62,999 bases of DNA, filler included, from 5 parts of 5 records of this genome joined end to end with filler, not necessarily neighbours in it, one strand, 5' to 3'. Shown: positions 38,013 through 49,896, counted from the whole stretch's first letter. Notes: a model not told the origin generated them from the sequence alone. Numbers and translations: made by a program.

Positions 38013-38086
38013 CGTCGAAAGCGGCGGTGAGCCGCTGGCGGATGCAGGGGTTTTTTTGTGTTTAACCTTATCTGTGCCGGTTGTAT

Positions 38087-38653
38087 CTAGTCGGCCTCTT
38101 CGATCTGGATTACTCCGGTCGGACAGACGGCGACGCATGCCTTGCAACCGACACAGACATCATTGAGTTCCTCGAACGGGGTCACGATGACCCGCTTGCT
38201 GCCGCGCTGGGCGAAGCTGATCGCGTGCCGTTTGGAAATTTCGGCGCACGCTCTCACGCACAATCCGCACAGGATACAATCGCTCTGTTCTTCTTTTTTC
38301 AGCTTGAAACGAGTGTCGCGCACACCGTATTCATGCGCAAGGTCGATGATCACCTGGGAATCGGGAGATCTGGCCAGGTACAGCTCCAGCAGGATCTTGC
38401 GGGTCTTGCGCACCCGCTCAGTATCCGTTTTCACCTCGATGCCTTCCTGGGCCGGATAGAGGCAGGCAGGCTGGATTGACGGCCAGCCGCGCTTGACCAC
38501 TTCCACCAGGCAGAGGCGGCAGGCTCCGTACGCGGACATATCCTCGTGATAGCAGAGAGTCGGGATCTTGATTCCCTGCTCCCGGGCGACTTCGAGTATG
38601 GTTGTGCCTTCCTTTACCTCGAGCTCTTTGTCGTTGAGCGTGAATGTAACCAT
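38087..38653 (-). CDS. NuoG/HydA N-terminal FeS domain only (BfuA-like): [2Fe-2S] plus 2x[4Fe-4S], no catalytic domain
   Basis: IPTLC...GACRLCLVE...PAC; CILCGLCVRAC; CVGCKACVAVCP; 188 aa. Confidence 0.9.
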   Translation of the reverse strand: MVTFTLNDKELEVKEGTTILEVAREQGIKIPTLCYHEDMSAYGACRLCLVEVVKRGWPSIQPACLYPAQEGIEVKTDTERVRKTRKILLELYLARSPDSQVIIDLAHEYGVRDTRFKLKKEEQSDCILCGLCVRACAEISKRHAISFAQRGSKRVIVTPFEELNDVCVGCKACVAVCPTGVIQIEEAD

Positions 38654-38669
38654 TGCGTATCTTCCTTGA

Positions 38670-40565
38670 TTAATCTATCGAGTCGAATTTGCAGACTTCT
38701 ACGCAAATACCGCATTTGACGCATTTTTCCTGGATGATCTCCGCCACTTCTTTCTTCTTCCAGATGATCGCCTCGGAGGGGCAGTTGCGGAAACACAGGC
38801 CGCACTTCTTGCATTTCTCGGGGTTGACCGTGTATGTGAACAACGGTTTGCATACCTTAGCCGGGCATTTCTTGTCCCGGATATGAGAGATATACTCATC
38901 CCTGAAGTTGTGCAGGGTGCTGAGAACCGGGTTTGACAGCGAGGTACCGAGACCGCACATGGACGCATCGTTGATGGCGTAACACAACTCCTCAAGCAGC
39001 CCGAGGTCCTCCTCGCGGCCTTCCCCTTCGCAGATCCGGTCAAGAATCTCGAGCAGGGCGGCGGACCCGTCCCGGCAGGAGATACATTTTCCGCACGATT
39101 CGTCATTGCAGAATTCGATGAAATATTTGGCGACGTTGACCACGCAGGCACTTTCGTCCATTACGATCATGCCGCCCGAACCCATCATCGATCCGGCCTC
39201 TTTGAGCTGGTCGAAATCAACCGGCATGTCGAGCATGTCGGCGGGCAGGCAGCCGCCGGACGGACCGCCGGTCTGTACGGCCTTGAACTGTTTGCCATCC
39301 GGGATGCCGCCGCCGATATCGAAGATGATCTTGCGCAGTGTCGTGCCCATCTCGACTTCGATCAGACCGGTATTGACGATGTTGCCGACAAGCGAGAACA
39401 CCTTGGTTCCCTTGGAGTTGTCTGTCCCCATCGACGCGTACCAGTCGGCCCCTTTGTTGAGAATGATCGGTACGTTGGCAAAGGTTTCAACGTTGTTGAG
39501 CACGGTCGGTTTTTCCCACAGCCCCTTGTCCGTGGCATGATCGTATTTGGCGGTGGGTTCTCCGGGCAGCCCCTCGATGGAGGCCCGCAGTGCACTCGAC
39601 TCACCACAGACAAATGCGCCGGCGCCCTGGAACACCTCGATGTCGAAGTCGAAATCGGAGCCCATGATGTTTTCACCAAGTACGCCGTACTCGCGCGCCT
39701 GTTTTATCGCGTTGAACAAACGGGTGACGGCGAGGGGGTATTCGGCACGGACATAGACGACGCCGTGTTTCGCACCGACTGAGTACGCAGCGATAATCAT
39801 TCCCTCGATGACGGACTGCGGGTTGCCCTCGATCAGGGAGCGGTCCATGAAGGCACCGGGGTCGCCCTCGTCCGCATTGCAGATGATGTATTTCGGGCGT
39901 CCGGTGGCCCTGGCCGCCGACTCCCACTTTCGTCCGGCAGGAAAACCGCCGCCTCCGCGTCCCCTGAGTCCGGATTTCTTGACCTCTTCGACGACGTCCT
40001 CCGGCGTCATGTCCTGCAGGCACTTAGCCAGAGCCTGGTACCCGTCTACCGCGAAATAATTGCGAATGTCTTCCGGGTTGATCGTTCCGCAGCCGCCGAG
40101 GACGATGCGTTTCTGGCCGGCGTAGAAGGGTACCTCCTGTTCCGTCGCCGCATGGGTGCCATCCTGTTTCTCGAACAGCAGGTCTTCAACGACATCGTGT
40201 TCCTCAAGTGTTGCCCGGACAATGTTTTCAACGTCGTCAACCTTCACCTTGTTGTAGAAGGTTCCGGCTGGTTCGACGCGCACCAGGGGGCCCATCTGGC
40301 AGAATCCGTGGCAGCCGCTGGTACTCGCTCCGACCTCCATGTCCTCGCCTTCAAAGAGGAGTTCGACATCGACATCTATCCCCTTGTTCTTGATGAGTCG
40401 CTTGAACTCTTCATAGACGTCGAGCGAACCGCCGACGATGCAGGCGGTCCCGGCGCAGACGCGGAAACAGAGCTTGCGCCTGGCCAGCGCTGCCTGGCAA
40501 TGTTCCCGTAGTACCGCCATATCAGACGGCGCACTTACCCGTGACTTCGTTAATGTGGTTTGCAT
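38670..40565 (-). CDS. NuoF/HydB-like flavoprotein (BfuB-type)
   Basis: N-terminal CAGTAC/GCHGFC [2Fe-2S]; GLRGRGGGGFP; NADEGDPGAFMDR; GGPSGG; ESCGKCISC...CGLG; HIRDKKCPAKVC; C-terminal 2x[4Fe-4S]. Confidence 0.93.
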   Translation of the reverse strand: MQTTLTKSRVSAPSDMAVLREHCQAALARRKLCFRVCAGTACIVGGSLDVYEEFKRLIKNKGIDVDVELLFEGEDMEVGASTSGCHGFCQMGPLVRVEPAGTFYNKVKVDDVENIVRATLEEHDVVEDLLFEKQDGTHAATEQEVPFYAGQKRIVLGGCGTINPEDIRNYFAVDGYQALAKCLQDMTPEDVVEEVKKSGLRGRGGGGFPAGRKWESAARATGRPKYIICNADEGDPGAFMDRSLIEGNPQSVIEGMIIAAYSVGAKHGVVYVRAEYPLAVTRLFNAIKQAREYGVLGENIMGSDFDFDIEVFQGAGAFVCGESSALRASIEGLPGEPTAKYDHATDKGLWEKPTVLNNVETFANVPIILNKGADWYASMGTDNSKGTKVFSLVGNIVNTGLIEVEMGTTLRKIIFDIGGGIPDGKQFKAVQTGGPSGGCLPADMLDMPVDFDQLKEAGSMMGSGGMIVMDESACVVNVAKYFIEFCNDESCGKCISCRDGSAALLEILDRICEGEGREEDLGLLEELCYAINDASMCGLGTSLSNPVLSTLHNFRDEYISHIRDKKCPAKVCKPLFTYTVNPEKCKKCGLCFRNCPSEAIIWKKKEVAEIIQEKCVKCGICVEVCKFDSID

Positions 40566-41524
40566 TACGCTTGTTCTCTATACTGTTTGACTATTTCAGG
40601 AGCTTTCTTTTTGGTCATCGGCCCGATCACCTCATCGTTGACCGTCATAACCGGTGCCAGTCCGCAGCAACCGATGCAGCGGACCTCTTCCAGTGTGAAG
40701 AGCATGTCATCGGTGGTTTCCCCGCACTTGATTCCGAGTTCCGGCTCGAACGCTTCGATGATGCCCTCTGCCCCGCGCACGTGGCATGCAGTGCCGGTGC
40801 AGACAGTAAACTTGTATTTGCCAATCGGGTCGAGACTGAAAAGGTTGTAGAATGTCGCGATCCGGAAAATCTTGGAGAGCGGCATGTCCATCTCTTTAGA
40901 AATTTGCCTGAGCACAGGTTCCGGCAGGTAGTTGAAGGTCGAATTGACGTCGTGCAGGATCGGCAGGATGGGTCCGGGATTGTCACGATGGCGGTCGATG
41001 ATATCGAATACCTGATTTCTGGCGGCGCGGTCGAGCTTGAGTTTCTTCTTGTCCTCAGCTACCTGCATCGTTCCTTCCCGCGCGAAAGTCCATTTGGCCC
41101 GGGTGTCGAAACTGCCGGACTCCGCCATTCCCTTGACCGTCTTGATCAAATCGGGCACGAACAGTTTGATGTCTTCCTTGACCTTGACCTGGCAGGCCAG
41201 TCGAGTGCCGGTCTTTCTCTCTTCCTTGTTGATGAACATCTCTTCGGTCGGCAGGAGGTCACCGCCGCCGCTTTCGACGTTGAGCTTGCAGAATCCGCAG
41301 GTGCCGCGGCCGCCGCATGAGGCTGGGATCTCCATACCCTGGTTGATGAGGATCGACAGCAGGGTCGACCCGCCGTCGACGTTGAACTCCTTGTGCCCGT
41401 CTTCATCGTCGACGGAAACCGTACACTCTCCATATGAAACGAGCAATTTGTCGGCGATCAGCAGGATGACGGTCAGCGTGAACAGTATCGCAGTAATGAT
41501 CCCGATAGGAAGTAGCGTCTCCAT
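40565..41524 (-). CDS. NqrF N-terminal TM + [2Fe-2S] domain in frame with a NuoE/HydC domain (possibly two genes, second starting at 41068)
   Basis: ASCGGRGTCGFC, GGGDLLPTE, RLACQVKV (NqrF-like); then IATFYNLF, CTGTACHVRG, VRCIGCCGLAP (NuoE). Confidence 0.88.
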   Translation of the reverse strand: METLLPIGIITAILFTLTVILLIADKLLVSYGECTVSVDDEDGHKEFNVDGGSTLLSILINQGMEIPASCGGRGTCGFCKLNVESGGGDLLPTEEMFINKEERKTGTRLACQVKVKEDIKLFVPDLIKTVKGMAESGSFDTRAKWTFAREGTMQVAEDKKKLKLDRAARNQVFDIIDRHRDNPGPILPILHDVNSTFNYLPEPVLRQISKEMDMPLSKIFRIATFYNLFSLDPIGKYKFTVCTGTACHVRGAEGIIEAFEPELGIKCGETTDDMLFTLEEVRCIGCCGLAPVMTVNDEVIGPMTKKKAPEIVKQYREQA

Positions 41525-41607
41525 AATTATTCCGCAGGGGCTCCCATGGGTTTAGGTGAATGTGTGTTGAATGATTCTTGCATTGCTGCCAGTACCTTGT
41601 CGAAGAT

Positions 41608-42192
41608 TTAGACCATACCGCTGAAGCCCATGAAGGCCAGCGCGATGATTCCAGTGATTACCATGATGATTCCCGGTCCCTGCAGTCCTTTCGGAACCCG
41701 GCCGATGAGATCGAGCTTCTCATAGATGGCGGCGACCATGATCATCGCCAGCCAGAATCCGATGGCCGCTGAAATCGCGTAGACGACCGTCTGGATATAG
41801 GACATGTTATCGACCGTGGTGGCCTTCAGGGAGATGAAGAGTACCGTACAGTTAACGGTGATCAGCGGTAAAAATATTCCAAACGAGGCCTGCAGCGCCG
41901 GGAAGAAGCGCTCCATGATCATCTCGACCAGCTGCACACAGGCGGCGATCACGATAATGAACACGATGTACTGGATGATCAGTGAGCCGGTGGCTTCGAG
42001 GAGCTGGTAGATGACCCAGTTGGCCGACGAGGTCAGCGCAACGACGAAGATGACGGCCGCTCCCATGCCCATCGCGGTGGTCAAGCTCCGCGACAGCGCT
42101 ACGAACGGACACATGCCGAGGAGATAGAAAAGTGCGACGTTCTGGATCAGCAGTGCCGTTATGAAGATCGACAATAATGATGTTTCGCCCAT
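41608..42192 (-). CDS. nqrE: NqrE/RnfA-like membrane subunit
   Basis: LGMCPF, VQLVEMIMERFFPAL, GIFLPLITVNC, VPKGLQG...ALAFMGFSG. Confidence 0.85.
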   Translation of the reverse strand: MGETSLLSIFITALLIQNVALFYLLGMCPFVALSRSLTTAMGMGAAVIFVVALTSSANWVIYQLLEATGSLIIQYIVFIIVIAACVQLVEMIMERFFPALQASFGIFLPLITVNCTVLFISLKATTVDNMSYIQTVVYAISAAIGFWLAMIMVAAIYEKLDLIGRVPKGLQGPGIIMVITGIIALAFMGFSGMV

Positions 42193-42265
42193 GGTGATGC
42201 CTTTGTGTGTGGTTTATGCTGCGGTATATTTCTTCGCTTCCAATCTGTCCCGGCCGATCAACCGA

Positions 42266-42895
42266 TCAACCGCTGGCCGGTGGTTCTATTTTCGCCGCGG
42301 TTCTCGTAATCCACAGGAATACGCCGAGAACGAAAAAAGCGCCTGCCGGTGCGGCGAGGACAACCCAGTCTACCCATCCGGCCGGAGTGACCCGCACACC
42401 CAGAAGGGTGCCGAACGCAAATATCTCGCGGATGATTGCAATGGCCATCAGCGTATAGGTGTATGCGAACCCGTTTGCCAGCGCATCAAGCAGCGACAGT
42501 TTCGGCGGGTTCTGGACAAAGAATGCCTCCGCCCGGCCCATGATAATGCAGTTGGTGATGATCAGCGGCACGTATGGCCCCATCGCCTCACTGATGGTCG
42601 GGAAATAGGCCTTGAGTACCAGGTCGACGATCGTCACGCCGGAGGCGATGGTGATCATGTAGATGATGATGCGGACCCGGGAGGGGATGACTTTTCTGAG
42701 CAGGGAGATGATGACGGCAGTCAGCACGAGCACGAAGATAACACCGGCGCTCATCGCGATGGCGTTTTCGACCTTGTTGGAAATCGCCAGCGCCGAGCAG
42801 ATGCCAAGAGTCGCGGAGCTGATGGGGTGCTCACGCCAGATCCCGTTCTTGATGGTCTTGGCGCCTTTCTTTCCGAATGTCTGTTTCAGATTCAT
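42266..42895 (-). CDS. nqrD: NqrD/RnfE-like membrane subunit
   Basis: LGICSALA, IPSRVRI, LIITNCIIMGRAEAF, APAGAFF. Confidence 0.85.
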   Translation of the reverse strand: MNLKQTFGKKGAKTIKNGIWREHPISSATLGICSALAISNKVENAIAMSAGVIFVLVLTAVIISLLRKVIPSRVRIIIYMITIASGVTIVDLVLKAYFPTISEAMGPYVPLIITNCIIMGRAEAFFVQNPPKLSLLDALANGFAYTYTLMAIAIIREIFAFGTLLGVRVTPAGWVDWVVLAAPAGAFFVLGVFLWITRTAAKIEPPASG

Positions 42896-42898
42896 TTT

Positions 42899-43471
42899 CT
42901 ATTGACCGAGCAGAGTTTTGGTAGCCTGGACGTTGATGTTCACAATATTTTCGAGCGCGTTGCAGGTCAGCGTCGCGCCGGTAATAGCGTCCACCTCATT
43001 ATCCGCCGATGCGGTTCCGGCCGCAACGATTGCCAGTTCGGGCACGACCTTCTTGTCGCGGAAATTCATTAAATTGTCGGCCGCAAGTACCCGGCTGCCT
43101 AGCCCAGGCGTTTCACTCTGGGTGATGATCGCAATGCCCTTGATCGCATCTTTTTCAGGGGAAAGGGCGATAACGCCGCTCATCGGACCCTGGGATCCCG
43201 GGCCGGCGAATTCGAACGCGATGCTTCCGTCCTCAGCTGTATACAACGTTTTGCCGTCAATTTCGTCGGCCTTGACATTGGTGGTGAAGACCTGCTCGAT
43301 GGTATCCGCCTCGTACGGGATAACAAGTGCCTCCAATACCTTCTTGCGCTTCTTCTCAAGCAGATACTTTTCGATCCTCGGCCCGGTCATCGTGTCGACC
43401 GCGACCAGCGCCGTTGCCCAGAATATTCCGAACACCAGAACGAAACCGATCATTTTGATTTTATCTATCAC
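42899..43471 (-). CDS. nqrC: NqrC/RnfG-like FMN-binding subunit
   Basis: N-terminal TM helix, SETPGLG, flavinylation motif VDAITGATLT. Confidence 0.85.
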   Translation of the reverse strand: MIDKIKMIGFVLVFGIFWATALVAVDTMTGPRIEKYLLEKKRKKVLEALVIPYEADTIEQVFTTNVKADEIDGKTLYTAEDGSIAFEFAGPGSQGPMSGVIALSPEKDAIKGIAIITQSETPGLGSRVLAADNLMNFRDKKVVPELAIVAAGTASADNEVDAITGATLTCNALENIVNINVQATKTLLGQ

Positions 43472-43529
43472 GCCAACTCTCCAAATCAGATTAGTCTGCC
43501 AGTCATTCCTGTCGTGCCTGGTACCGTAT

Positions 43530-44630
43530 TCAGGTCGTTTCCGCGCTGCGATAGCGCACTGAAAGGACCACGTGGTCGATCAACGGGGTAAACGCGTTCA
43601 TGATCACGATACTGAACATGACGCCCTCGACATATCCTGAGAACACCCGGATCAGAACGGTCAGCAGGCCGCAGCCGACCCCGAAAATGAATTTGCCCGG
43701 AACCGTAAACGGTGAGGTGACCGGATCGCAAGACATGAACATTGCTCCGAACAGCACGGAACCGCCGAGCAGGTTGAATAGTCCGAAGTTCCAGGCGGCA
43801 CCGAAGCCGCTGGAAGCCGCTTCCGCCCCGGCCGTGGGAATACCGCCGAACAGCCCGATAGCAAACGCACAGACGAAGACCGATGCGAGGTAGGTGACCG
43901 GCACCCGCCAGTTGCTCACCCTGGTCAACATCAAGAAGATGCCACCGATGATAATCCCGAGCCTGAATGTTTCACCGGCGCTTCCGGATGGAATGCCGAT
44001 GAGCAGGTCCGCCGCCGGGGTGAAGATCGCCTGGGTCTTCGCCAGCGCCATCGGCGTTGCCTGGGAGACCGCGTCAGCTGCTCCCCGCCATGCTCCCGGT
44101 GCGGTCCAGCCGCTGGTCATGATGGTAGGGAAGGCGATGGTAATGAACAGCCTGCCCACCAGGGCCGGGTTAAAGATATTGTGACCGGTCCCGCCGAAGA
44201 CCTCCTTACCGAAAAAGACGCCGAAGAAGATGCCGACGGCGACAACCCATAGTGGGGTTGACGGCGGCAGAATAAGCGGGAAGAGGATGCCGGTGACGAA
44301 AAAGCCCTCGTGGATCTCGGTCTTCCGTACGCACGCGAAGATCACCTCGACGATGCCTCCGACCGCATATGAAACGAGGATCATCAGCAGAATGCGCGGG
44401 CCGAAGTAATAGAGCGACGCACAGATGCTGGGAAGCAGCGCGACTATCACGATGGTCATGTAGCGTTTGATGTCGAGCGGATCCCTTACGTGCGGGCCGG
44501 TTGCCGTTCGTGCCGGCGGGTAGAAGAAAATGAACTCTATGGCCTCGAAAAGCGGCTTGAAAAAAACGAGATTGCCCCGTTTTTCAAAGTGAGGCCTGGA
44601 CGATTCAAATAGGTTGTAAAGCCATTTCAT
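43530..44630 (-). CDS. nqrB: NqrB/RnfD-like membrane subunit
   Basis: NqrB-type N-terminus PHFEKRG...LFEA...F.P...PHVRD; HEGFFVTG; KEVFGGTG.NIFNPALVGR; DAVSQATP; DPVTSP. Confidence 0.88.
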   Translation of the reverse strand: MKWLYNLFESSRPHFEKRGNLVFFKPLFEAIEFIFFYPPARTATGPHVRDPLDIKRYMTIVIVALLPSICASLYYFGPRILLMILVSYAVGGIVEVIFACVRKTEIHEGFFVTGILFPLILPPSTPLWVVAVGIFFGVFFGKEVFGGTGHNIFNPALVGRLFITIAFPTIMTSGWTAPGAWRGAADAVSQATPMALAKTQAIFTPAADLLIGIPSGSAGETFRLGIIIGGIFLMLTRVSNWRVPVTYLASVFVCAFAIGLFGGIPTAGAEAASSGFGAAWNFGLFNLLGGSVLFGAMFMSCDPVTSPFTVPGKFIFGVGCGLLTVLIRVFSGYVEGVMFSIVIMNAFTPLIDHVVLSVRYRSAETT

Positions 44631-44721
44631 GCTTATTTCCTTGGCACCATGTTGTCTGAATGCGGTGAAAATCCAGTCGTCTTCAGTTGAATATCGCGAA
44701 CACCACCCATGAACGCGTCAC

Positions 44722-44983
44722 TCATCCTTCAATTAATTCTGCTATCGCACGTGCCCGTTCCGCCCTGAACGTATCCAGATGGTTGATCTTGGAAACGCAG
44801 ACGTAGGAACACAGGCCGCAGTCGATACACTTGTCGAACTCGACCCGATAGGCATCCTCGGGACGGTCGTTGTCCAGGTATCTATATATGAGATGCGGGA
44901 TAATTCCCGCAGGGCACACGCTCTCGCAGAAACCACAGAACACGCAGGGGCGGGATTCGCCGCCGAGCGCTGTTGTGAGTTTT
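44722..44983 (-). CDS. C-terminal fragment of an NqrA/RnfC-like subunit with 2x[4Fe-4S]
   Basis: Frame open to the contig edge: KLTTALGGESRPCVFCGFCESVCP...CIDCGLCSYVCVSKI. Confidence 0.8.
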
Positions 44984-45350: not shown

Positions 45351-46355
45351 ATGGCAGTTCATCCACACAAAGGCAGTTTCGACCCGTTTCCGGTAGCTCC
45401 GGTTTTCGTGGTCGGAGCACCGCGCTCAGGTACGACACTGCTGCAGAACCTGATTGCATGCCACCCCGACGCGGGAACAGCCCCCGAGACACACATTTTC
45501 ATCAAACTGACTCCAACCCTTCTCTACGAACGTAACCTGCCGCCCATCGGCAAACGAGCCGTACCGGAAACACTGCGTGGCAGCCAGGTCAACCAATTGT
45601 CCGGGGAGCTCTTCTCCTCGCTGGGTGCTGATCATGATCCGCCTGTCTTGGCCACCCACTACCACGACGATGAAGAGGTTGCCACCAGAGCGGTTGCCGG
45701 GCGTTTCTTTTCCGCACTTGCACAACGGGGCAAACATATCTTCATCGAGAAGTCTCCTCCACACGTGTTTTTCACCGCCGAAATTATGTCGGTCATTCCC
45801 GAGGCAAAAATCATTCACATTATCAGGGACCCACGGGACGTCGTTCCGTCGATCAACCGTATGCTTCAGCACATGGGCAAAAAACCGAGAACCGTTTACG
45901 AGCGAGCAAAAATTTGGAAAAGCTCTGTTGCCGCTGCTCAATCGGCGCGATTGTTCACGGTTCGCTACGAAGACCTCGTATCGGACACCCACACCGTCAT
46001 GAAGCAGGTGTTCACCTTTCTTGACCTCTCCTATTCCCCAGACTTCCTCTCTGAGCACTCTCGAGTTTCCGAAAAAACGGTTAAGAAAAATGAAATATGG
46101 AAAGCGAAGAATTTCAGCGACATCTCACCGGATCGCATCGGCAGGTTCAGGCAATCACTGAATACCAATGAAATCGGCATGATAGAGGCGATGTGCGGGC
46201 GACTCATGCTGAATCACGGCTACCAGACCACGGACGTACCGTCCAGAGCAATGGCTGTCCGCCGAGAAGCTGTGCAATACCATGCCCGGCGTGCCCGTAT
46301 GCTGCTCAAACGAGGGTTCTCCTCTGTCCAGGAACGTATACGGGGAAACCGATAA
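45351..46355 (+). CDS. Sulfotransferase
   Basis: PVFVVGAPRSGTTLL, EKSP, HIIRDPRDVVPS, VRYEDLV. Confidence 0.92.
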   Translation: MAVHPHKGSFDPFPVAPVFVVGAPRSGTTLLQNLIACHPDAGTAPETHIFIKLTPTLLYERNLPPIGKRAVPETLRGSQVNQLSGELFSSLGADHDPPVLATHYHDDEEVATRAVAGRFFSALAQRGKHIFIEKSPPHVFFTAEIMSVIPEAKIIHIIRDPRDVVPSINRMLQHMGKKPRTVYERAKIWKSSVAAAQSARLFTVRYEDLVSDTHTVMKQVFTFLDLSYSPDFLSEHSRVSEKTVKKNEIWKAKNFSDISPDRIGRFRQSLNTNEIGMIEAMCGRLMLNHGYQTTDVPSRAMAVRREAVQYHARRARMLLKRGFSSVQERIRGNR

Positions 46356-46420
46356 GCCGCCTGTTCTGATACTGAAGTTCCCGGATCAACACCGGACCAA
46401 ACCGGGAGTACTCATTCCAT

Positions 46421-47218
46421 TTATTCCGCGTAGCCGAAAAGGTCAAGGAGCCTCTTCGCGTCGGGGACATCCAGCAAAGCGCCGACGCGGTCTCTATACT
46501 TCTCGTCCCTCCAGCGACCGATGCCGTGGGACGAAAGGCTGGTAACCTCGGAAGACCATGCGACATGCTTCCTCACACTGGCATTTTCTCTGTAATTGAA
46601 CACACTCTCAGGAATATCGAGCCGGAAACGGTCATAGATTTTCGCTATCGTGGTGTGAAAGTCGCTGACGAGGTCCTCGTACCGGATGATAACCGTATCC
46701 CCATCGCCCTGGTGGGACGCGGTAATCCCGACGTCATAGGCCCAACGTTCTGGATGAATATGAAACTCGCCAGGATTACTGGGATGAAGAGATGTAATGA
46801 CATCTCTTCCGTCACGAACGATATGGACGAACCGGACGGATCCTTTGTATGCTTTCCTGATACAGCCGATTGTGCGTACATGTATAGGTGTCTTCTCAAC
46901 AATACAACGTTGGTCCGGTGTAGGTGCCGACTGTTTGAGAACTGCAGCAAGCAACTTCAACCGTGCCACTCGAGCCTTCCACCCCGAACAGGTATCTACC
47001 TTCCGCCACAGGATGCCGGTCGGTCCAGGTTGCGACAGAAACCCGCGTTTAAAGACCTCGGTTTCGTAATCCAGGCAGTAGAAGCGTTTGTCCGACGAAA
47101 GGATGGACAGAAGCAGGGTTGTTCCGGATCGGCCACAGCCGACGATAAACATCGGCGGCTCCCTTGTGATGAATTTCAGGCCCTTAATACGGGCGTATAT
47201 GTCAATCAATTCAATCAT
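46421..47218 (-). CDS. Sulfotransferase
   Basis: FIVGCGRSGTTLL, EKTP, HIVRDGRDVITS, IRYEDLV, GIGRWR. Confidence 0.92.
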   Translation of the reverse strand: MIELIDIYARIKGLKFITREPPMFIVGCGRSGTTLLLSILSSDKRFYCLDYETEVFKRGFLSQPGPTGILWRKVDTCSGWKARVARLKLLAAVLKQSAPTPDQRCIVEKTPIHVRTIGCIRKAYKGSVRFVHIVRDGRDVITSLHPSNPGEFHIHPERWAYDVGITASHQGDGDTVIIRYEDLVSDFHTTIAKIYDRFRLDIPESVFNYRENASVRKHVAWSSEVTSLSSHGIGRWRDEKYRDRVGALLDVPDAKRLLDLFGYAE

Positions 47219-49896
47219 TCCTCACTACCTGCCGCCGGGCATGCAACTCCTGAGCCTCAAGCAGGTCATTTTTCAGCCGTTCCCCGAGATATTCAACGAG
47301 AGGCTGCTCGAGCATCGTCAAATGATTACCGGGAATCCAGTGCTCCCTGAATCCTTGACCGGCCACCCGTCTCCAGGCAAGCCGACGATCGAGAATCCTT
47401 CGTCGATAAGGGGACTCCTTGACCCGGTAGAGAACAACGTCAGTTGAAACCTTACCCGGCCTGTATGCACGACGCGCCTGTCTCAGTGTCCGTTTAAGTT
47501 CCAGGTTGGGCTGCACTTTCTTGCCGATAGCCCCATCTTTTGCTTCCGAGATTCGCTCAAGTTCTTCCTTTTTCCTGGCAGCTACCCTGTTCTCCGTCGC
47601 TGATCTCAATTTCCGCTGCAACCAGCCATAGCACTGCTCCAGGTATTCCCCTGCAATCATGCTGCGAGGAATGATACAATCAGGAGCCCTCGTCTCAACC
47701 AGGACAAGCAGCGCAACTTCTTCTCCGTTCTCAATAAGTTGCCGGGCAATTTCAAAGGCGACCACCCCGCCGAAACACGTTCCGCACAGGTAATAGGGGC
47801 CTGCCGACTGCACTTTCTGCAACTCATTGATATAATACGATGCAATACCTTCAATACGTTCGAATCGCTCCAGGTTCCGATCATACCCGGCTGCCTGAAT
47901 TCCATAGAAGGGCTGATCTTCTCCAAAATATTTAGCCAGGTCCTGGTGACGCATCAGATGACCGCCTATACCCGGAACACAAAACAGCGGCGTGCGACTT
48001 CCTCCATTATTGAGGAGTACCACCGGGCTGACGCTGTCCGTTTTGGAATCCTTTTCGATAAGACGGGCCAGCTGGTTGACGGTATTTGCTTCCGCAAGAT
48101 CGGTAATGGCAATCCGCGTACCGAGCATCTTCTCCACTCGATCTGCCATCTCCACTACCAGGAGTGAGTTTCCGCCGATATCAAAAAAATCTTCATCCGG
48201 TTCAACTCTCTGGAGTTCAAGCAGGTTTTCCCAGAGTCGACATAATCGATCGACCAGCGATTCCGACTCTGCGGCCGATTGTCCTTCAGGTGAAGCAGGC
48301 GTTGTAATATGCAGCTGTGACTTATCGATTTTCCCGTTGGGGCCGAGGGGAATCTCATCGATAATTTCAACACTCACCGGTACCATGTGAGGCGGCAGTC
48401 TGTCTTTCAACCCTTTTCTGATTGCTGTCGAATCCAGAACGGTATCTTTACAGGGAACCACGAATGCAAATAACCGGTAATCGCCCCGATCGTCACCTTT
48501 GGCGACGACAACTCCCTGCTCGACGCCTGGAGTCCGGTTAAGAGCTTTTTCGATATCGGCGAGTTCGACCCCGATCCCCCTGACCTTGATCTTCTCATCA
48601 AGTCTGCCGGTGATTTCAAGAGTCCCATCCGGCAAAACCATTCCGAGATCGCCTGTGCGGAACATGAGCCTTCCCTGAACACTGCTGGTGGAATCAGGGA
48701 GATATCGTTGACGCGACAATATCGGATGGTTCAGGTAACCATCCGATATCCGGCTACCGCCAACAGCAATTTCGCCAATGTCGCCCTCTGCGACCTGCCG
48801 CTGCCCCTCATCCAGCAGATATACCGGGGTATCCGGCAGATGACGGCCAATCGGCACCATGCCTTCAGACTTAATATCCTCGCGAGAAACCCGATACGCA
48901 CAAACCGTTCCGGCAGTCTCAGTCTGAGAATAGAGATTCATTATTGTAGCTGATTGCCCGAGATCATGGTGCCAGAGAGCTGGAATGGTCCAGGGCATGG
49001 CCTGACCGGTAGAAAAAATATACTGAAGCCCCTGCGGCAGCAGTTGCGTGCGCCGGTCAACAGGCATCCCTGCAAGAGAGCGAAGGAAAAAATGAAGTAC
49101 TGCGGGCACCGTATCCCACACCGAGACGTGCTGCTCCCTGATCAAATTGAATAGCTGGACGGGGTCTTTTCTCTGTTCCTCACTGGCAACGACCATGGTA
49201 TTGCCTGTGCACAATGGAAGAAACGTTTGCCTGGTCGACGCCGAGAATGCGGTTGTCGCCGTGTGCAAAAAAATATGCTCAGAACCATCACCGAAAAATG
49301 TCTGTTTCAGGGCATCCATATACGTTATCATGGACCCATGTTTGACCGCGACGCTTTTGGGACGACCGACCGACCCCGAGGTAAACATTACGTAGGCGAG
49401 GTCATCCGCCGAAACTTCCGTGTGCGGTTTATCCAGGTCGTGCTGATCACGCGTTTCATAAAACGATTCAATCGTCAATGCCTGTGTTGAAGGGAACAGA
49501 GAAGCATGAGCGGAGTGGGTAACAACGGCTGACATCGGAGTGTCAGAGATCATTTCAAGCAGCCGTTCCTCAGGGTACTGGGTATCCATTGGCACATACG
49601 CTGCTCCGATCTTCAATACCGATAGAATCGCAGCGACATTGACATGCCCCCGATCCAGGTATATTCCAACGAAACTTCCTTTCTCAACTCCTGCGTCCTG
49701 CAACCAGTGCGCAAGCTGGTTTGCGAGTTCGTCAAATCGGGAGTAGGTCAATCGAACCGAATCATCGATAATGGCCATCTTCTCCGGCGCTTTCACAACC
49801 CGGTTCTCAAAGAGCGCGTGAACGCCCCCTTCCCACCATGGGCAGGCTCCATCCCAGCTGAAGACCAGTGTCCCTGACTGTAAAATGTTCCTTTTT
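47211..49896 (-). CDS. NRPS-like adenylation-PCP-thioesterase; probably the C-terminal part of one protein with the upstream dehydratase
   Basis: VHALFE...APEKMA, FTSGSVGRPK, FRTGDLG, GRLDEKIKVRG, NGKID; PCP FFDIGGNSL; TE GTCFG and GNH. Confidence 0.9.

What the first reader, a model, noticed from the sequence alone, without database searches (positions are those of the whole stretch)
38087..44983. Na+-NQR-type membrane complex wired to a HydABC/Bfu electron-bifurcating module instead of NqrF's own NADH dehydrogenase
Seen: one co-oriented operon in nqrA-B-C-D-E-F order with Nqr-like motifs, followed directly by nuoE-, nuoF- and short nuoG-like genes. Known: canonical NQR takes electrons from NADH via the FAD domain of NqrF; Rnf takes them from ferredoxin via RnfB; HydABC/Bfu cores bifurcate between NAD(P)H and ferredoxin. 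Neither an NqrF FAD domain nor an RnfB is visible here. Inference: an ion-pumping complex with a bifurcating/confurcating input, e.g. coupling NAD(P)H, ferredoxin and NAD+ or quinone to Na+ translocation. I cannot verify whether this arrangement has already been catalogued.
Basis: partly seen in the sequence, partly recalled or inferred. Interest (0 to 1): 0.9.

Follow-up and report, generated by a model that had tools for sequence, protein, structure and literature searches.

The report
Nqr-type ion pump with bifurcating-flavoprotein head
This operon encodes a membrane redox pump related to the sodium-pumping Nqr and Rnf complexes whose usual electron-input subunit is replaced by the NADH/ferredoxin flavoprotein module of electron-bifurcating hydrogenases, an arrangement kept in three bacterial phyla and not found described in the papers searched.

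Summary
The finding fills a 6,971-base contig (38013-44983) with one minus-strand operon. It holds the last 86 codons of an NqrA/RnfC-like gene, NqrB/RnfD-, NqrC/RnfG-, NqrD/RnfE- and NqrE/RnfA-like genes, and one ORF fusing the NqrF N-terminus (membrane helix plus [2Fe-2S]) to NuoE. A HydB/BfuB-type NuoF and a 188-aa NuoG/BfuA stub follow.

The same order recurs in 26 of 80 fetched loci from Desulfocapsaceae, Planctomycetota and Spirochaetota. None of 30 such loci holds RnfB or an NqrF FAD domain.

In trees the membrane subunits form their own clade (100/100), sister to all sampled Nqr-type clusters. Subunit B has the NqrB-only N-terminal segment that forms the quinone pocket. Subunit A keeps RnfC's two [4Fe-4S] motifs but has a degenerate or lost FMN/NAD domain.

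Most likely this is an ion-pumping oxidoreductase that feeds electrons from NADH, probably together with reduced ferredoxin, through a Bfu module into an Nqr-type core and on to menaquinone. Bifurcation, the acceptor and the pumped ion are inferred.

Seven literature searches found no description. I rate it a new variant of known kinds.

The parts
44725..44983 (-). C-terminal 86 codons of the A subunit (NqrA/RnfC-like), cut by the contig end. It carries eight Cys in two CxxCxxCxxxC motifs.
   Evidence: Best hit rnfC TIGR01945, 58 bits. It is 92% identical to the end of the complete 442-aa protein L002:5571-6899, which aligns over its full length to V. cholerae NqrA.
43530..44630 (-). B subunit (NqrB/RnfD-like, 366 aa) with flavinylation motif DAVSQAT (T192) and an NqrB-type N-terminal segment.
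   Evidence: PF03116, 330 bits; nqrB NF003756 304 bits, below its 414 cut-off; rnfD TIGR01946 244 bits, above its 207 cut-off; residues 7-84 align to NqrB 6-83 of 7xk3_B, while RnfD structures start aligning at residue 42-43.
42899..43471 (-). C subunit (NqrC/RnfG-like, 190 aa) with an FMN_bind domain and the motif DAITGAT.
42266..42895 (-). D subunit (NqrD/RnfE-like, 209 aa). C33 and C116 are candidate ligands of the intramembrane [2Fe-2S].
   Evidence: C33 is kept in 43 of 43 aligned homologues and C116 in 41 of 43.
41608..42192 (-). E subunit (NqrE/RnfA-like, 194 aa). C28 and C115 are the partner ligands.
   Evidence: Both Cys are kept in 43 of 43 aligned homologues.
40565..41524 (-). Fusion protein (319 aa): N-terminal membrane helix, an NqrF-type [2Fe-2S] ferredoxin domain (C70, C76, C79, C111), a linker, and a NuoE/BfuC thioredoxin-like [2Fe-2S] domain (C242, C247, C283, C287).
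   Evidence: nqrF TIGR01941 residues 5-159, 123 bits; invariant Cys; residues 7-152 align to V. cholerae NqrF 8-151, and residues 171-317 to HydC, NfnC and WorC chains.
38670..40565 (-). BfuB/HydB-type NuoF (631 aa): N-terminal [2Fe-2S] domain, FMN/NADH domain, N3-type [4Fe-4S] and a C-terminal 2x[4Fe-4S] domain.
   Evidence: The start codon overlaps the stop of the fusion gene by one base.
38087..38653 (-). Short BfuA/NuoG stub (188 aa): [2Fe-2S] plus two [4Fe-4S], with no catalytic domain.
   Evidence: It aligns end to end with WorA (9mqx_A residues 11-185) and lacks the same Cys/His segment that HydA chains carry.

Best explanation
The operon encodes one membrane complex, a third branch of the Rnf/Nqr superfamily.

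Shown:
- The core is of the Nqr lineage: subunits B, C, D and E have all flavinylation and Cys ligands intact.
- B carries the NqrB-only N-terminal segment.
- An NqrF-type membrane anchor and [2Fe-2S] domain is present, but its FAD/NADH domain is replaced by a fused NuoE/BfuC domain.
- A BfuB-type flavoprotein and a short WorA-like BfuA follow.
- The A subunit keeps two [4Fe-4S] motifs while its FMN/NAD domain is degenerate (Planctomycetota, Spirochaetota) or NqrA-like (Desulfocapsaceae).

Inferred:
- NADH is oxidised at the BfuB FMN, probably together with reduced ferredoxin bound at the BfuB C-terminal clusters (confurcation).
- Electrons leave the Bfu module to the tethered NqrF-type [2Fe-2S].
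- They then pass the D/E cluster, the C FMN, and the B FMN and riboflavin.
- They reduce menaquinone at the NqrB-type pocket while Na+ or H+ is pumped out.

The A-subunit clusters are either a retained side branch or a second port. In effect it would be an 'Nqr-Bfu', the Nqr counterpart of the predicted Nuo-Bfu.
For: One complex:
- The fusion of the NqrF-type anchor to NuoE is found in the window and in at least 120 protein clusters at 50-91% identity.
- Gene order A-B-C-D-E-(F'-NuoE)-NuoF-NuoG' is kept in 26 of 80 loci from three phyla.
- Gaps are at most 91 bases, and the fusion and NuoF genes overlap.

Nqr lineage:
- Concatenated D+E tree, 42 clusters: this type 100/100, sister to the NqrD-type clade (99/96), joint clade 100/100 against Rnf.
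- The paralogue-rooted tree gives the same topology.
- The B N-terminus aligns to NqrB residues 6-83. RnfD lacks this segment, and the 2025 review (PMC12174285, passages) says it forms the quinone pocket.
- The A subunit shares with NqrA an insertion of about 35 residues that RnfC lacks.

Bfu module:
- 606-748 bits to all nine solved BfuB-type chains, against 377 or less for non-bifurcating ones.
- N- and C-terminal cluster domains are present.
- The BfuA stub matches WorA.
- Spirochaete operons carry hydrogenase-operon accessory genes: DRTGG, CBS-HATPase and PHP.

Quinone:
- Two Desulfocapsaceae and one planctomycete host genome have MqnA/D or MenA plus MenG above cut-off; a second planctomycete host (G009, incomplete) has MenA only.
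- Polyprenyl synthetase lies beside the cluster in 12 of 17 spirochaete loci.
- A UbiA prenyltransferase lies 11-24 kb away in 4 of 4 further spirochaete genomes.
Against: - No biochemical datum exists for any member.
- The eight A-subunit Cys are kept in every member seen. This argues for working Fe-S clusters that a pure quinone reductase would not need.
- Five of five spirochaete host genomes lack MenB above cut-off, and G004 lacks MqnA/D and has only sub-threshold MenA and MenG hits. Menaquinone as acceptor is therefore unproven there.
- The fusion joins the NqrF-type domain to BfuC, not to BfuA, which is where Bfu enzymes normally exchange electrons with their third partner (PMC12318220, passages).
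- Both NADH and ferredoxin oxidation by quinone are exergonic, so confurcation is not needed thermodynamically.
- No RNA run holding the sequence was listed, so expression is unknown.
Confidence: 0.5

Rival explanations
1. It is a plain NADH:quinone oxidoreductase. The Bfu-type module serves only as an NADH dehydrogenase that replaces NqrF's FAD domain, with no ferredoxin involvement and no confurcation.
For: NADH to menaquinone is exergonic on its own. The core and the B N-terminus are Nqr-like. Host genomes also hold canonical Rnf for ferredoxin oxidation.
Against: The BfuB keeps the N-terminal [2Fe-2S] domain and the C-terminal 2x[4Fe-4S] domain with all Cys. These mark the bifurcating family and are absent from non-bifurcating NuoF (PMC9304861 and PMC12318220, passages). 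Keeping them across three phyla suggests they are used.
Confidence: 0.2
2. It is an Rnf-like enzyme without quinone. Electrons run between the Bfu module (NADH/ferredoxin) and an unknown soluble partner that docks on the two [4Fe-4S] clusters of the A subunit, with ion translocation in either direction.
For: All eight A-subunit Cys are kept. Planctomycete and spirochaete A subunits still score weakly as RnfC_N and Complex1_51K, 32-51 bits in 5 of 5 tested. The classical and futalosine menaquinone markers searched were not found above cut-off in the spirochaete hosts.
Against: The FMN/NAD glycine motif is degenerate. Complex1_51K scores 172-188 bits in true RnfC, against 32-51 bits or none here. 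The NqrB-type quinone-pocket segment is kept. Isoprenoid genes are linked to the cluster in spirochaetes.
Confidence: 0.15
3. It works in reverse. The ion gradient drives electrons from quinol up through the core, and the Bfu module bifurcates them to NAD+ and ferredoxin, making reduced ferredoxin for sulfate reducers or disproportionators.
For: Rnf runs in reverse in several organisms (PMC12174285, passages). Bfu enzymes are reversible (PMC9304861, abstract and passages).
Against: The gap from menaquinol (about -74 mV, value as given in PMC9304861) to a mid-potential of about -400 mV would need more than the one ion per electron reported for Nqr. That stoichiometry is established knowledge and was not tested here. 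The complex also occurs in fermentative spirochaetes and Anaerohalosphaeraceae, which make ferredoxin easily.
Confidence: 0.08
4. The adjacency encodes two separate enzymes: an Nqr-like core and, apart from it, a soluble NuoEFG-like enzyme.
For: In Spirochaetota the anchor/[2Fe-2S] gene and the NuoE gene are separate, and up to 3 kb of accessory genes lie before NuoF.
Against: The covalent fusion occurs in Desulfocapsaceae, Planctomycetota and others. Without the module the core would have no electron input, since no RnfB or NqrF FAD domain is found in 30 loci. The short BfuA has no catalytic domain of its own.
Confidence: 0.03

Closest known systems
[quoted passage not shown]
   Same: - Gene order A-B-C-D-E-F.
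- NqrF-type membrane helix and [2Fe-2S] domain with the same four Cys positions.
- NqrB-type N-terminal segment.
- NqrA-type insertion in subunit A.
- Flavinylation motifs and D/E Cys.
- Sister position in trees.
   Different: - No FAD/NADH (FNR-like) domain in F.
- NADH would be oxidised by a NuoF/BfuB FMN protein instead.
- Subunit A keeps two [4Fe-4S] motifs that NqrA has lost.
- B lacks NqrB's 40-residue insertion.
- All subunits score below the nqr equivalog cut-offs.
- It forms a separate clade.
Rnf complex (RnfCDGEAB; structures 7zc6, 9eri, 8ahx)
   Same: Shared membrane core. Subunit A/C has the C-terminal 2x[4Fe-4S] domain. Planctomycete and spirochaete forms keep RnfC_N and a weak Complex1_51K signal.
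   Different: No RnfB polyferredoxin. The FMN/NAD motif of RnfC is degenerate or lost. The membrane subunits branch with Nqr, not inside Rnf.
BfuABC family of electron-bifurcating flavoproteins (HydABC 7p5h, 7q4v, 8a6t; NiFe-HydABCSL 7t2r; NfnABC 9n5u; WorABCSL 9mqx)
   Same: BfuB has the FMN domain, an N3-type cluster, an N-terminal [2Fe-2S] and a C-terminal 2x[4Fe-4S]. There is a BfuC [2Fe-2S] domain. The short BfuA resembles WorA and lacks the same cluster segment.
   Different: The third partner is a membrane Rnf/Nqr-type core. BfuC is fused to an NqrF-type anchor and ferredoxin domain. BfuA has no catalytic or adaptor domain beyond residue 188.
Predicted membrane-bound Bfu enzymes Nuo-Bfu and Mbh-Bfu (Schut et al. 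2022, PMC9304861; passages read)
   Same: The concept is the same: a BfuABC module placed in an operon for an ion-translocating membrane complex, proposed to confurcate NADH and ferredoxin onto menaquinone or protons.
   Different: The membrane partner there is of the complex I or Mbh type. The main text of that catalogue has no occurrence of 'Nqr', and 'Rnf' appears only in a reference. Its supplementary tables could not be read.

Membership tests
Na+-NQR | NqrF with a [2Fe-2S] ferredoxin domain plus an FNR-like FAD/NADH domain | tested here: not met
   Only the anchor and [2Fe-2S] part is present: TIGR01941 residues 5-159 of the protein against model positions 3-155 of 405. No FAD_binding_6 or NAD_binding_1 hit. 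No tblastn hit to an NqrF FAD/NAD domain in 30 related loci or on the contig.
Na+-NQR | NqrA without redox cofactors | tested here: not met
   The window fragment and all seven full-length A subunits of this type aligned keep eight Cys in two CxxCxxCxxxC motifs. Canonical NqrA (L102) lacks them.
Na+-NQR | NqrB with an extra N-terminal segment forming the quinone pocket | tested here: met
   Residues 7-84 align to V. cholerae NqrB 6-83. The segment is absent from three RnfD sequences in alignment A3. Quinone binding itself was not tested.
Na+-NQR | Curated equivalog scores for nqrB, nqrC, nqrD and nqrE | tested here: not met
   Scores against cut-offs: 304 vs 414 (NF003756), 62 vs 144 (TIGR01938), 199 vs 235 (NF006777), 167 vs 248 (TIGR01940).
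Na+-NQR | Placement inside the Nqr clade | tested here: not met
   It is sister to, not inside, the clade of 17 NqrD-type clusters (99/96) in the 42-cluster tree. Sampling is limited: the 30 clusters of this type and the Nqr type come from five groups (Desulfocapsaceae, Spirochaetota, Planctomycetota and the phyla of G005 and G007).
Rnf | RnfB polyferredoxin input subunit | tested here: not met
   No tblastn hit at E<=1e-5 with two RnfB queries in 30 related loci. Only weak Fer4 similarity on the contig.
Rnf | RnfC with an FMN/NAD(H) domain plus 2x[4Fe-4S] | tested here: inconclusive
   The Fe-S motifs are present. Complex1_51K gives no hit in the two Desulfocapsaceae proteins and 32-51 bits in five planctomycete and spirochaete proteins, against 172-188 bits in two true RnfC. 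The GGAGFP motif is replaced. The window itself holds only the Fe-S end.
Rnf/Nqr superfamily core | Flavinylation threonines in B and C, and four Cys in D/E | tested here: met
   DAVSQAT (T192; T in 34 of 37 homologues), DAITGAT, and C33/C116 plus C28/C115.
BfuABC | BfuB with FMN/NADH site, N3-type [4Fe-4S], N-terminal [2Fe-2S] and C-terminal 2x[4Fe-4S] | tested here: met
   Pfam domains, Cys pattern, and 606-748 bits over nearly full length to nine solved BfuB-type chains.
BfuABC | BfuC thioredoxin-like [2Fe-2S] subunit | tested here: met
   PF01257, 165 bits. Residues 171-317 align to HydC, NfnC and WorC chains. Four invariant Cys. Here it is fused to the NqrF-type anchor.
BfuABC | BfuA N-terminal Fe-S domain linking a third-substrate site | tested here: met
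   It holds a [2Fe-2S] plus two [4Fe-4S]. The best match is WorA 9mqx_A at E 1e-37, with the same missing segment. It has no catalytic domain.
BfuABC | Electron bifurcation or confurcation between NAD(H), ferredoxin and a third substrate | not testable with these tools
   This needs enzyme assays.

The most novel reading that the evidence does not exclude
This is a living intermediate between Rnf and Nqr, and a new kind of respiratory enzyme. It would be a membrane pump that confurcates NADH and reduced ferredoxin through a hydrogenase-derived Bfu module into an Nqr-type core, reducing a membrane quinone while pumping Na+. It would show that the Nqr lineage first acquired the NqrF-type anchor and the quinone pocket while still carrying RnfC-type Fe-S clusters. 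It would also show that NADH-oxidising heads (FNR-like or Bfu-type) were swapped onto one anchor.
Probability: 0.35. Interest if true: 0.85.

Novelty: new variant of a known kind. Interest (0 to 1): 0.72.

Why it matters
Rnf and Nqr are the two known branches of a widespread family of redox-driven ion pumps. How Nqr arose from Rnf is argued only from sequence comparison (Reyes-Prieto 2014).

This clade mixes features of both. It has an Nqr-type F anchor, the NqrB N-terminus and the NqrA insertion. It also has RnfC-type Fe-S clusters, and it carries a third, different electron-input head. That makes the order of events in Nqr evolution testable.

Functionally, it would be the first Rnf/Nqr-type pump fed by a Bfu module. 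This would extend the predicted membrane-bound Bfu enzymes (Nuo-Bfu, Mbh-Bfu). It would also offer anaerobes a way to conserve energy from NADH plus ferredoxin without making hydrogen.

It is rare but spread over sediment anaerobes of at least three phyla, so it may matter for their energy budgets.

Tried and rejected
- Whole-genome search of the window's own genome: none is held. Host context was therefore taken from relatives' genomes.
- Literature: seven searches, plus passages of eight papers (PMC4046663, PMC6349859, PMC4014512, PMC9304861, PMC11406978, PMC12174285, PMC8238504, PMC12318220). None gave a description of this arrangement.
They list Bfu clades and their neighbours and might name this cluster. 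Supplementary file 1 of PMC8238504 was not read either.
- Earlier scan notes by sequence and by place: nothing.
- Sequencing runs: no RNA holder listed. One DNA run holds the whole stretch and may be its source. No reads were laid.
- Promoter and terminator scan of the contig: counts no higher than in shuffles, so no use was made of it.
- Menaquinone markers in spirochaete hosts gave no clear answer.
- Structure and complex prediction were not run. NuoE-NuoF-NuoG contacts would pass by likeness to solved HydABC, and transient ferredoxin-domain docking is poorly predicted.
- The idea that an rnfB or nqrF lies in the missing upstream DNA was rejected. Complete relatives begin the operon with the A gene and have unrelated genes upstream.

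Full report
**1. What is in the window**

The window is a chain of contigs separated by N spacers with GC from 0.35 to 0.57. The finding's coordinates are exactly one 6,971-base contig, 38013-44983.

On its minus strand lie eight co-oriented reading frames with gaps of -1 to 91 bases:
- The last 86 codons of an A/C-like gene (44725-44983), cut by the contig end.
- B (43530-44630, 366 aa).
- C (42899-43471, 190 aa).
- D (42266-42895, 209 aa).
- E (41608-42192, 194 aa).
- A 319-aa fusion protein (40565-41524).
- A 631-aa NuoF-like protein (38670-40565).
- A 188-aa NuoG-like stub (38087-38653).

Pfam and NCBIfam give the following:
- B: NQR2_RnfD_RnfE.
- C: FMN_bind.
- D and E: Rnf-Nqr.
- Fusion: Fer2 plus thioredoxin-like 2Fe-2S.
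- NuoF-like: Complex1_51K and NADH_4Fe-4S, with an N-terminal 2Fe-2S domain and a C-terminal 2x Fer4.
- Stub: Fer2_4 plus 2x4Fe-4S.

'F' and 'nuoE' are one ORF. Only the end of 'A' is present. That end carries two CxxCxxCxxxC motifs of the RnfC kind.

**2. Cofactor sites are intact (unless stated)**

- B has DAVSQAT; its T192 is T in 34 of 37 homologues.
- C has DAITGAT.
- D has C33 and C116, and E has C28 and C115; these are kept in 41-43 of 43 homologues.
- The fusion protein has an N-terminal hydrophobic helix.
- The fusion's Cys 70/76/79/111 lie in a stretch that aligns to V. cholerae NqrF residues 8-151 and to nqrF TIGR01941 positions 3-155.
- The fusion also has the four NuoE-type Cys, invariant in 13 relatives.
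- The NuoF-like protein has the Cys of an N-terminal [2Fe-2S], the N3-type cluster and two C-terminal [4Fe-4S].
- The stub has one [2Fe-2S] and two [4Fe-4S].

**3. The arrangement is conserved**

A search with the fusion protein found at least 120 protein clusters with the same two-domain architecture at 50-91% identity. Sources name them from Desulfocapsaceae, Desulfofustis, Desulfobacterales, Spirochaetota and Latescibacterota.

A scan of species-representative genomes returned 80 loci. In 26 of them the order A-B-C-D-E-fusion-NuoF-stub recurs as far as each contig reaches. These are Desulfocapsaceae L001-L008, Planctomycetota L009-L012 and L015, one locus whose record names no phylum (L014), and Spirochaetota and relatives L013, L016, L017, L036, L043, L047, L050, L056, L058, L066, L072 and L073. 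The other 54 loci match only the NuoE half.

In Spirochaetota the anchor/[2Fe-2S] part (149 aa) and NuoE are separate adjacent genes. Some operons hold DRTGG, CBS-HATPase, PHP, HATPase and a separate small 2Fe-2S gene before NuoF. From my own knowledge these accompany HydABC hydrogenase operons; this was not tested.

No RnfB, NqrF FAD/NAD domain or ApbE was hit in 30 loci of this type. Complete relatives begin the operon with the A gene, with unrelated genes upstream.

**4. It is a paralogue, not a replacement**

One Desulfocapsaceae genome (G001) holds four Rnf/Nqr-type clusters:
- A canonical RnfCDGEAB with ApbE.
- A canonical NqrABCDEF.
- An Rnf core with an RnfB::GltD-like fusion.
- This type.

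Using the E subunit as a probe:
- 21 of 187 genomes of that family carry it, at 85% identity or more.
- 8 of 401 sampled genomes of the spirochaete phylum carry it, at 61-69%.
- 2 of 401 of the planctomycete phylum carry it.
- The last two counts include the centre genomes.
- Other hits form a separate group at 52% identity or less.

**5. Where it sits**

A paralogue-rooted tree of the D-type and E-type subunits (86 rows, quick search) was built. So was a careful tree of the two subunits concatenated (42 clusters, 404 columns; 13 of the 25 members of this type that have both subunits were kept, to save time). They agree:
- This type is one clade (100/100).
- It is sister to a clade of all sampled clusters with NqrD-type subunits (99/96).
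- The two together (100/100) stand against Rnf.

Sampling of canonical Nqr is limited to Desulfocapsaceae and two further phyla reached through handles. The extra rows L128-L138 were labelled Nqr from their NqrD family score only.

Three shared characters support the Nqr affinity:
- The NqrF-type anchor.
- A roughly 35-residue insertion in subunit A that NqrA has and three RnfC lack.
- The N-terminus of B. Residues 7-84 align to V. cholerae NqrB 6-83, whereas RnfD structures and sequences begin at about residue 42. A 2025 review (PMC12174285, passages) states that the NqrB quinone pocket is formed by N-terminal helices absent from RnfD.

**6. The A subunit is intermediate**

The complete relative L002 is 442 aa, and its end is 92% identical to the window fragment. 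It aligns over residues 41-428 to V. cholerae NqrA, but only over its Fe-S end to three RnfC structures.

Complex1_51K scores are:
- 172-188 bits in two true RnfC.
- 32-51 bits in five planctomycete and spirochaete A subunits.
- Nothing in two Desulfocapsaceae ones, which score as NQRA_2nd instead.

The GGAGFP motif is replaced. All members keep the eight Cys; canonical NqrA does not. Reyes-Prieto et al. (PMC4014512, passages) proposed that NqrA arose from RnfC by losing NAD, FMN and Fe-S sites. These proteins look like stages of that loss.

**7. The head is a Bfu module**

- The NuoF-like protein scores 606-748 bits over nearly its whole length against nine solved BfuB-type chains (7t2r, 7q4v, 8a6t, 9mqx, 9bov, 8oh5, 7q4w, 7p5h, 9n5u). 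It scores 377 bits or less against FdsB and complex I NuoF.
- The NuoE half matches HydC, NfnC and WorC best.
- The stub aligns end to end with the first 185 residues of WorA (9mqx_A, E 1e-37). It lacks the same Cys/His segment that HydA chains have.
- The WorABCSL paper (PMC12318220, passages) says WorA lacks cluster A3. It also says additional subunits deliver electrons to WorA cluster A4.
- Schut et al. (PMC9304861, abstract and passages) define the family by the BfuBC core and predict two membrane-bound members, Nuo-Bfu and Mbh-Bfu. Their main text has no 'Nqr', and 'Rnf' appears only in a reference.

**8. Mechanism**

Shown: the parts list, the ligands, the fusion, the synteny and the phylogenetic place.

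Inferred: NADH is oxidised at the BfuB FMN, and reduced ferredoxin probably binds at the BfuB C-terminal clusters, as proposed for the family. Electrons then pass to the tethered NqrF-type [2Fe-2S] and through the D/E cluster. From there they go to the C FMN, then to the B FMN and riboflavin, and finally to a quinone at the NqrB-type pocket, with ion export.

In favour of quinone:
- The B N-terminus.
- Menaquinone markers: two Desulfocapsaceae hosts and one planctomycete host have MqnA/D or MenA plus MenG above cut-off. The second planctomycete host (G009, an incomplete genome) has MenA only.
- Polyprenyl synthetase beside the cluster in 12 of 17 spirochaete loci.
- A UbiA gene 11-24 kb away on the same contig in 4 of 4 further spirochaete genomes, with a B12-radical-SAM gene, a small multihaem cytochrome c and ResB nearby.

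Against:
- Spirochaete hosts lack MenB above cut-off (0 of 5).
- G004 lacks MqnA/D. Its copy also has no stub hit and may be decayed.
- The conserved A-subunit clusters suggest a second port.
- The anchor is fused to BfuC rather than to BfuA.
- The ion pumped and the direction of operation are unknown.

**9. Novelty**

Both modules are known kinds, and membrane-bound Bfu enzymes have been predicted with other membrane partners. I therefore file this as a new variant rather than a new category.

I found no description in seven full-text searches. Nor did I find one in passages of the Rnf/Nqr review, the Bfu catalogue, the flavinylation survey (which defines RNF by RnfB and NQR by NqrF, so would miss this type) or the Nqr-evolution paper. 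Supplementary tables could not be read, and subscription journals are not covered.

Earlier notes of this scan describe different NuoEF plus RnfB::GltD cassettes in other genomes, not this arrangement.

Noticed in passing
L103:4549-10873 (G001) and L114 (G002): An Rnf core (RnfC, D, E and A called) is followed by a 710-aa protein that fuses an RnfB-like N-terminus to a GltD/NfnB-like NAD(P)-binding flavoprotein. This is a second non-canonical Rnf head in the same Desulfocapsaceae genomes (L114 by BLAST only).
   Followed up: partly
L105:4805-10273 (G004, Spirochaetaceae chromosome): An Nqr-type cluster with a 364-aa NqrF (Fer2+FAD+NAD). Its A subunit (467 aa) keeps both CxxCxxCxxxC motifs, and its B subunit is the closest non-member relative of the window's B (313 bits).
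   Followed up: partly
L106:6714-10693, L108:6004-9951, L113:4312-8332: These are B-C-D-E-F clusters with a 366-372-aa NqrF-like protein. There is no A gene next to B in L106 and L108; L113 is cut by the contig end. Their B subunits lack the NqrB N-terminal segment.
   Followed up: no
L124:1-20000, L125, L126, L127 (Spirochaetota): The spirochaete operons sit in a conserved neighbourhood. It holds ResB and a small multihaem cytochrome c upstream, and two-component systems, polyprenyl synthetase, a B12-binding radical SAM enzyme and a UbiA prenyltransferase downstream. These genomes have no MenB above cut-off.
   Followed up: partly
L047:14159-18298 (G004): In this copy the NuoF match stops at query residue 596 and no short NuoG is found. 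A long minus-strand ORF occupies the place, so the operon may be decayed.
   Followed up: no
window 1-62999: The window is five contigs joined by N/TTAATTAATTAA spacers, with GC of 0.35-0.57. The contig at 11762-37912 has a strong negative GC skew. The contigs may not all come from one organism.
   Followed up: no
window 45351-49796: The next contig holds an 861-aa protein that looks to the eye like an adenylation-carrier-thioesterase (NRPS-like) enzyme, flanked by two ORFs of 334 and 265 aa that look to the eye like sulfotransferases. None was run against any family library.
   Followed up: no
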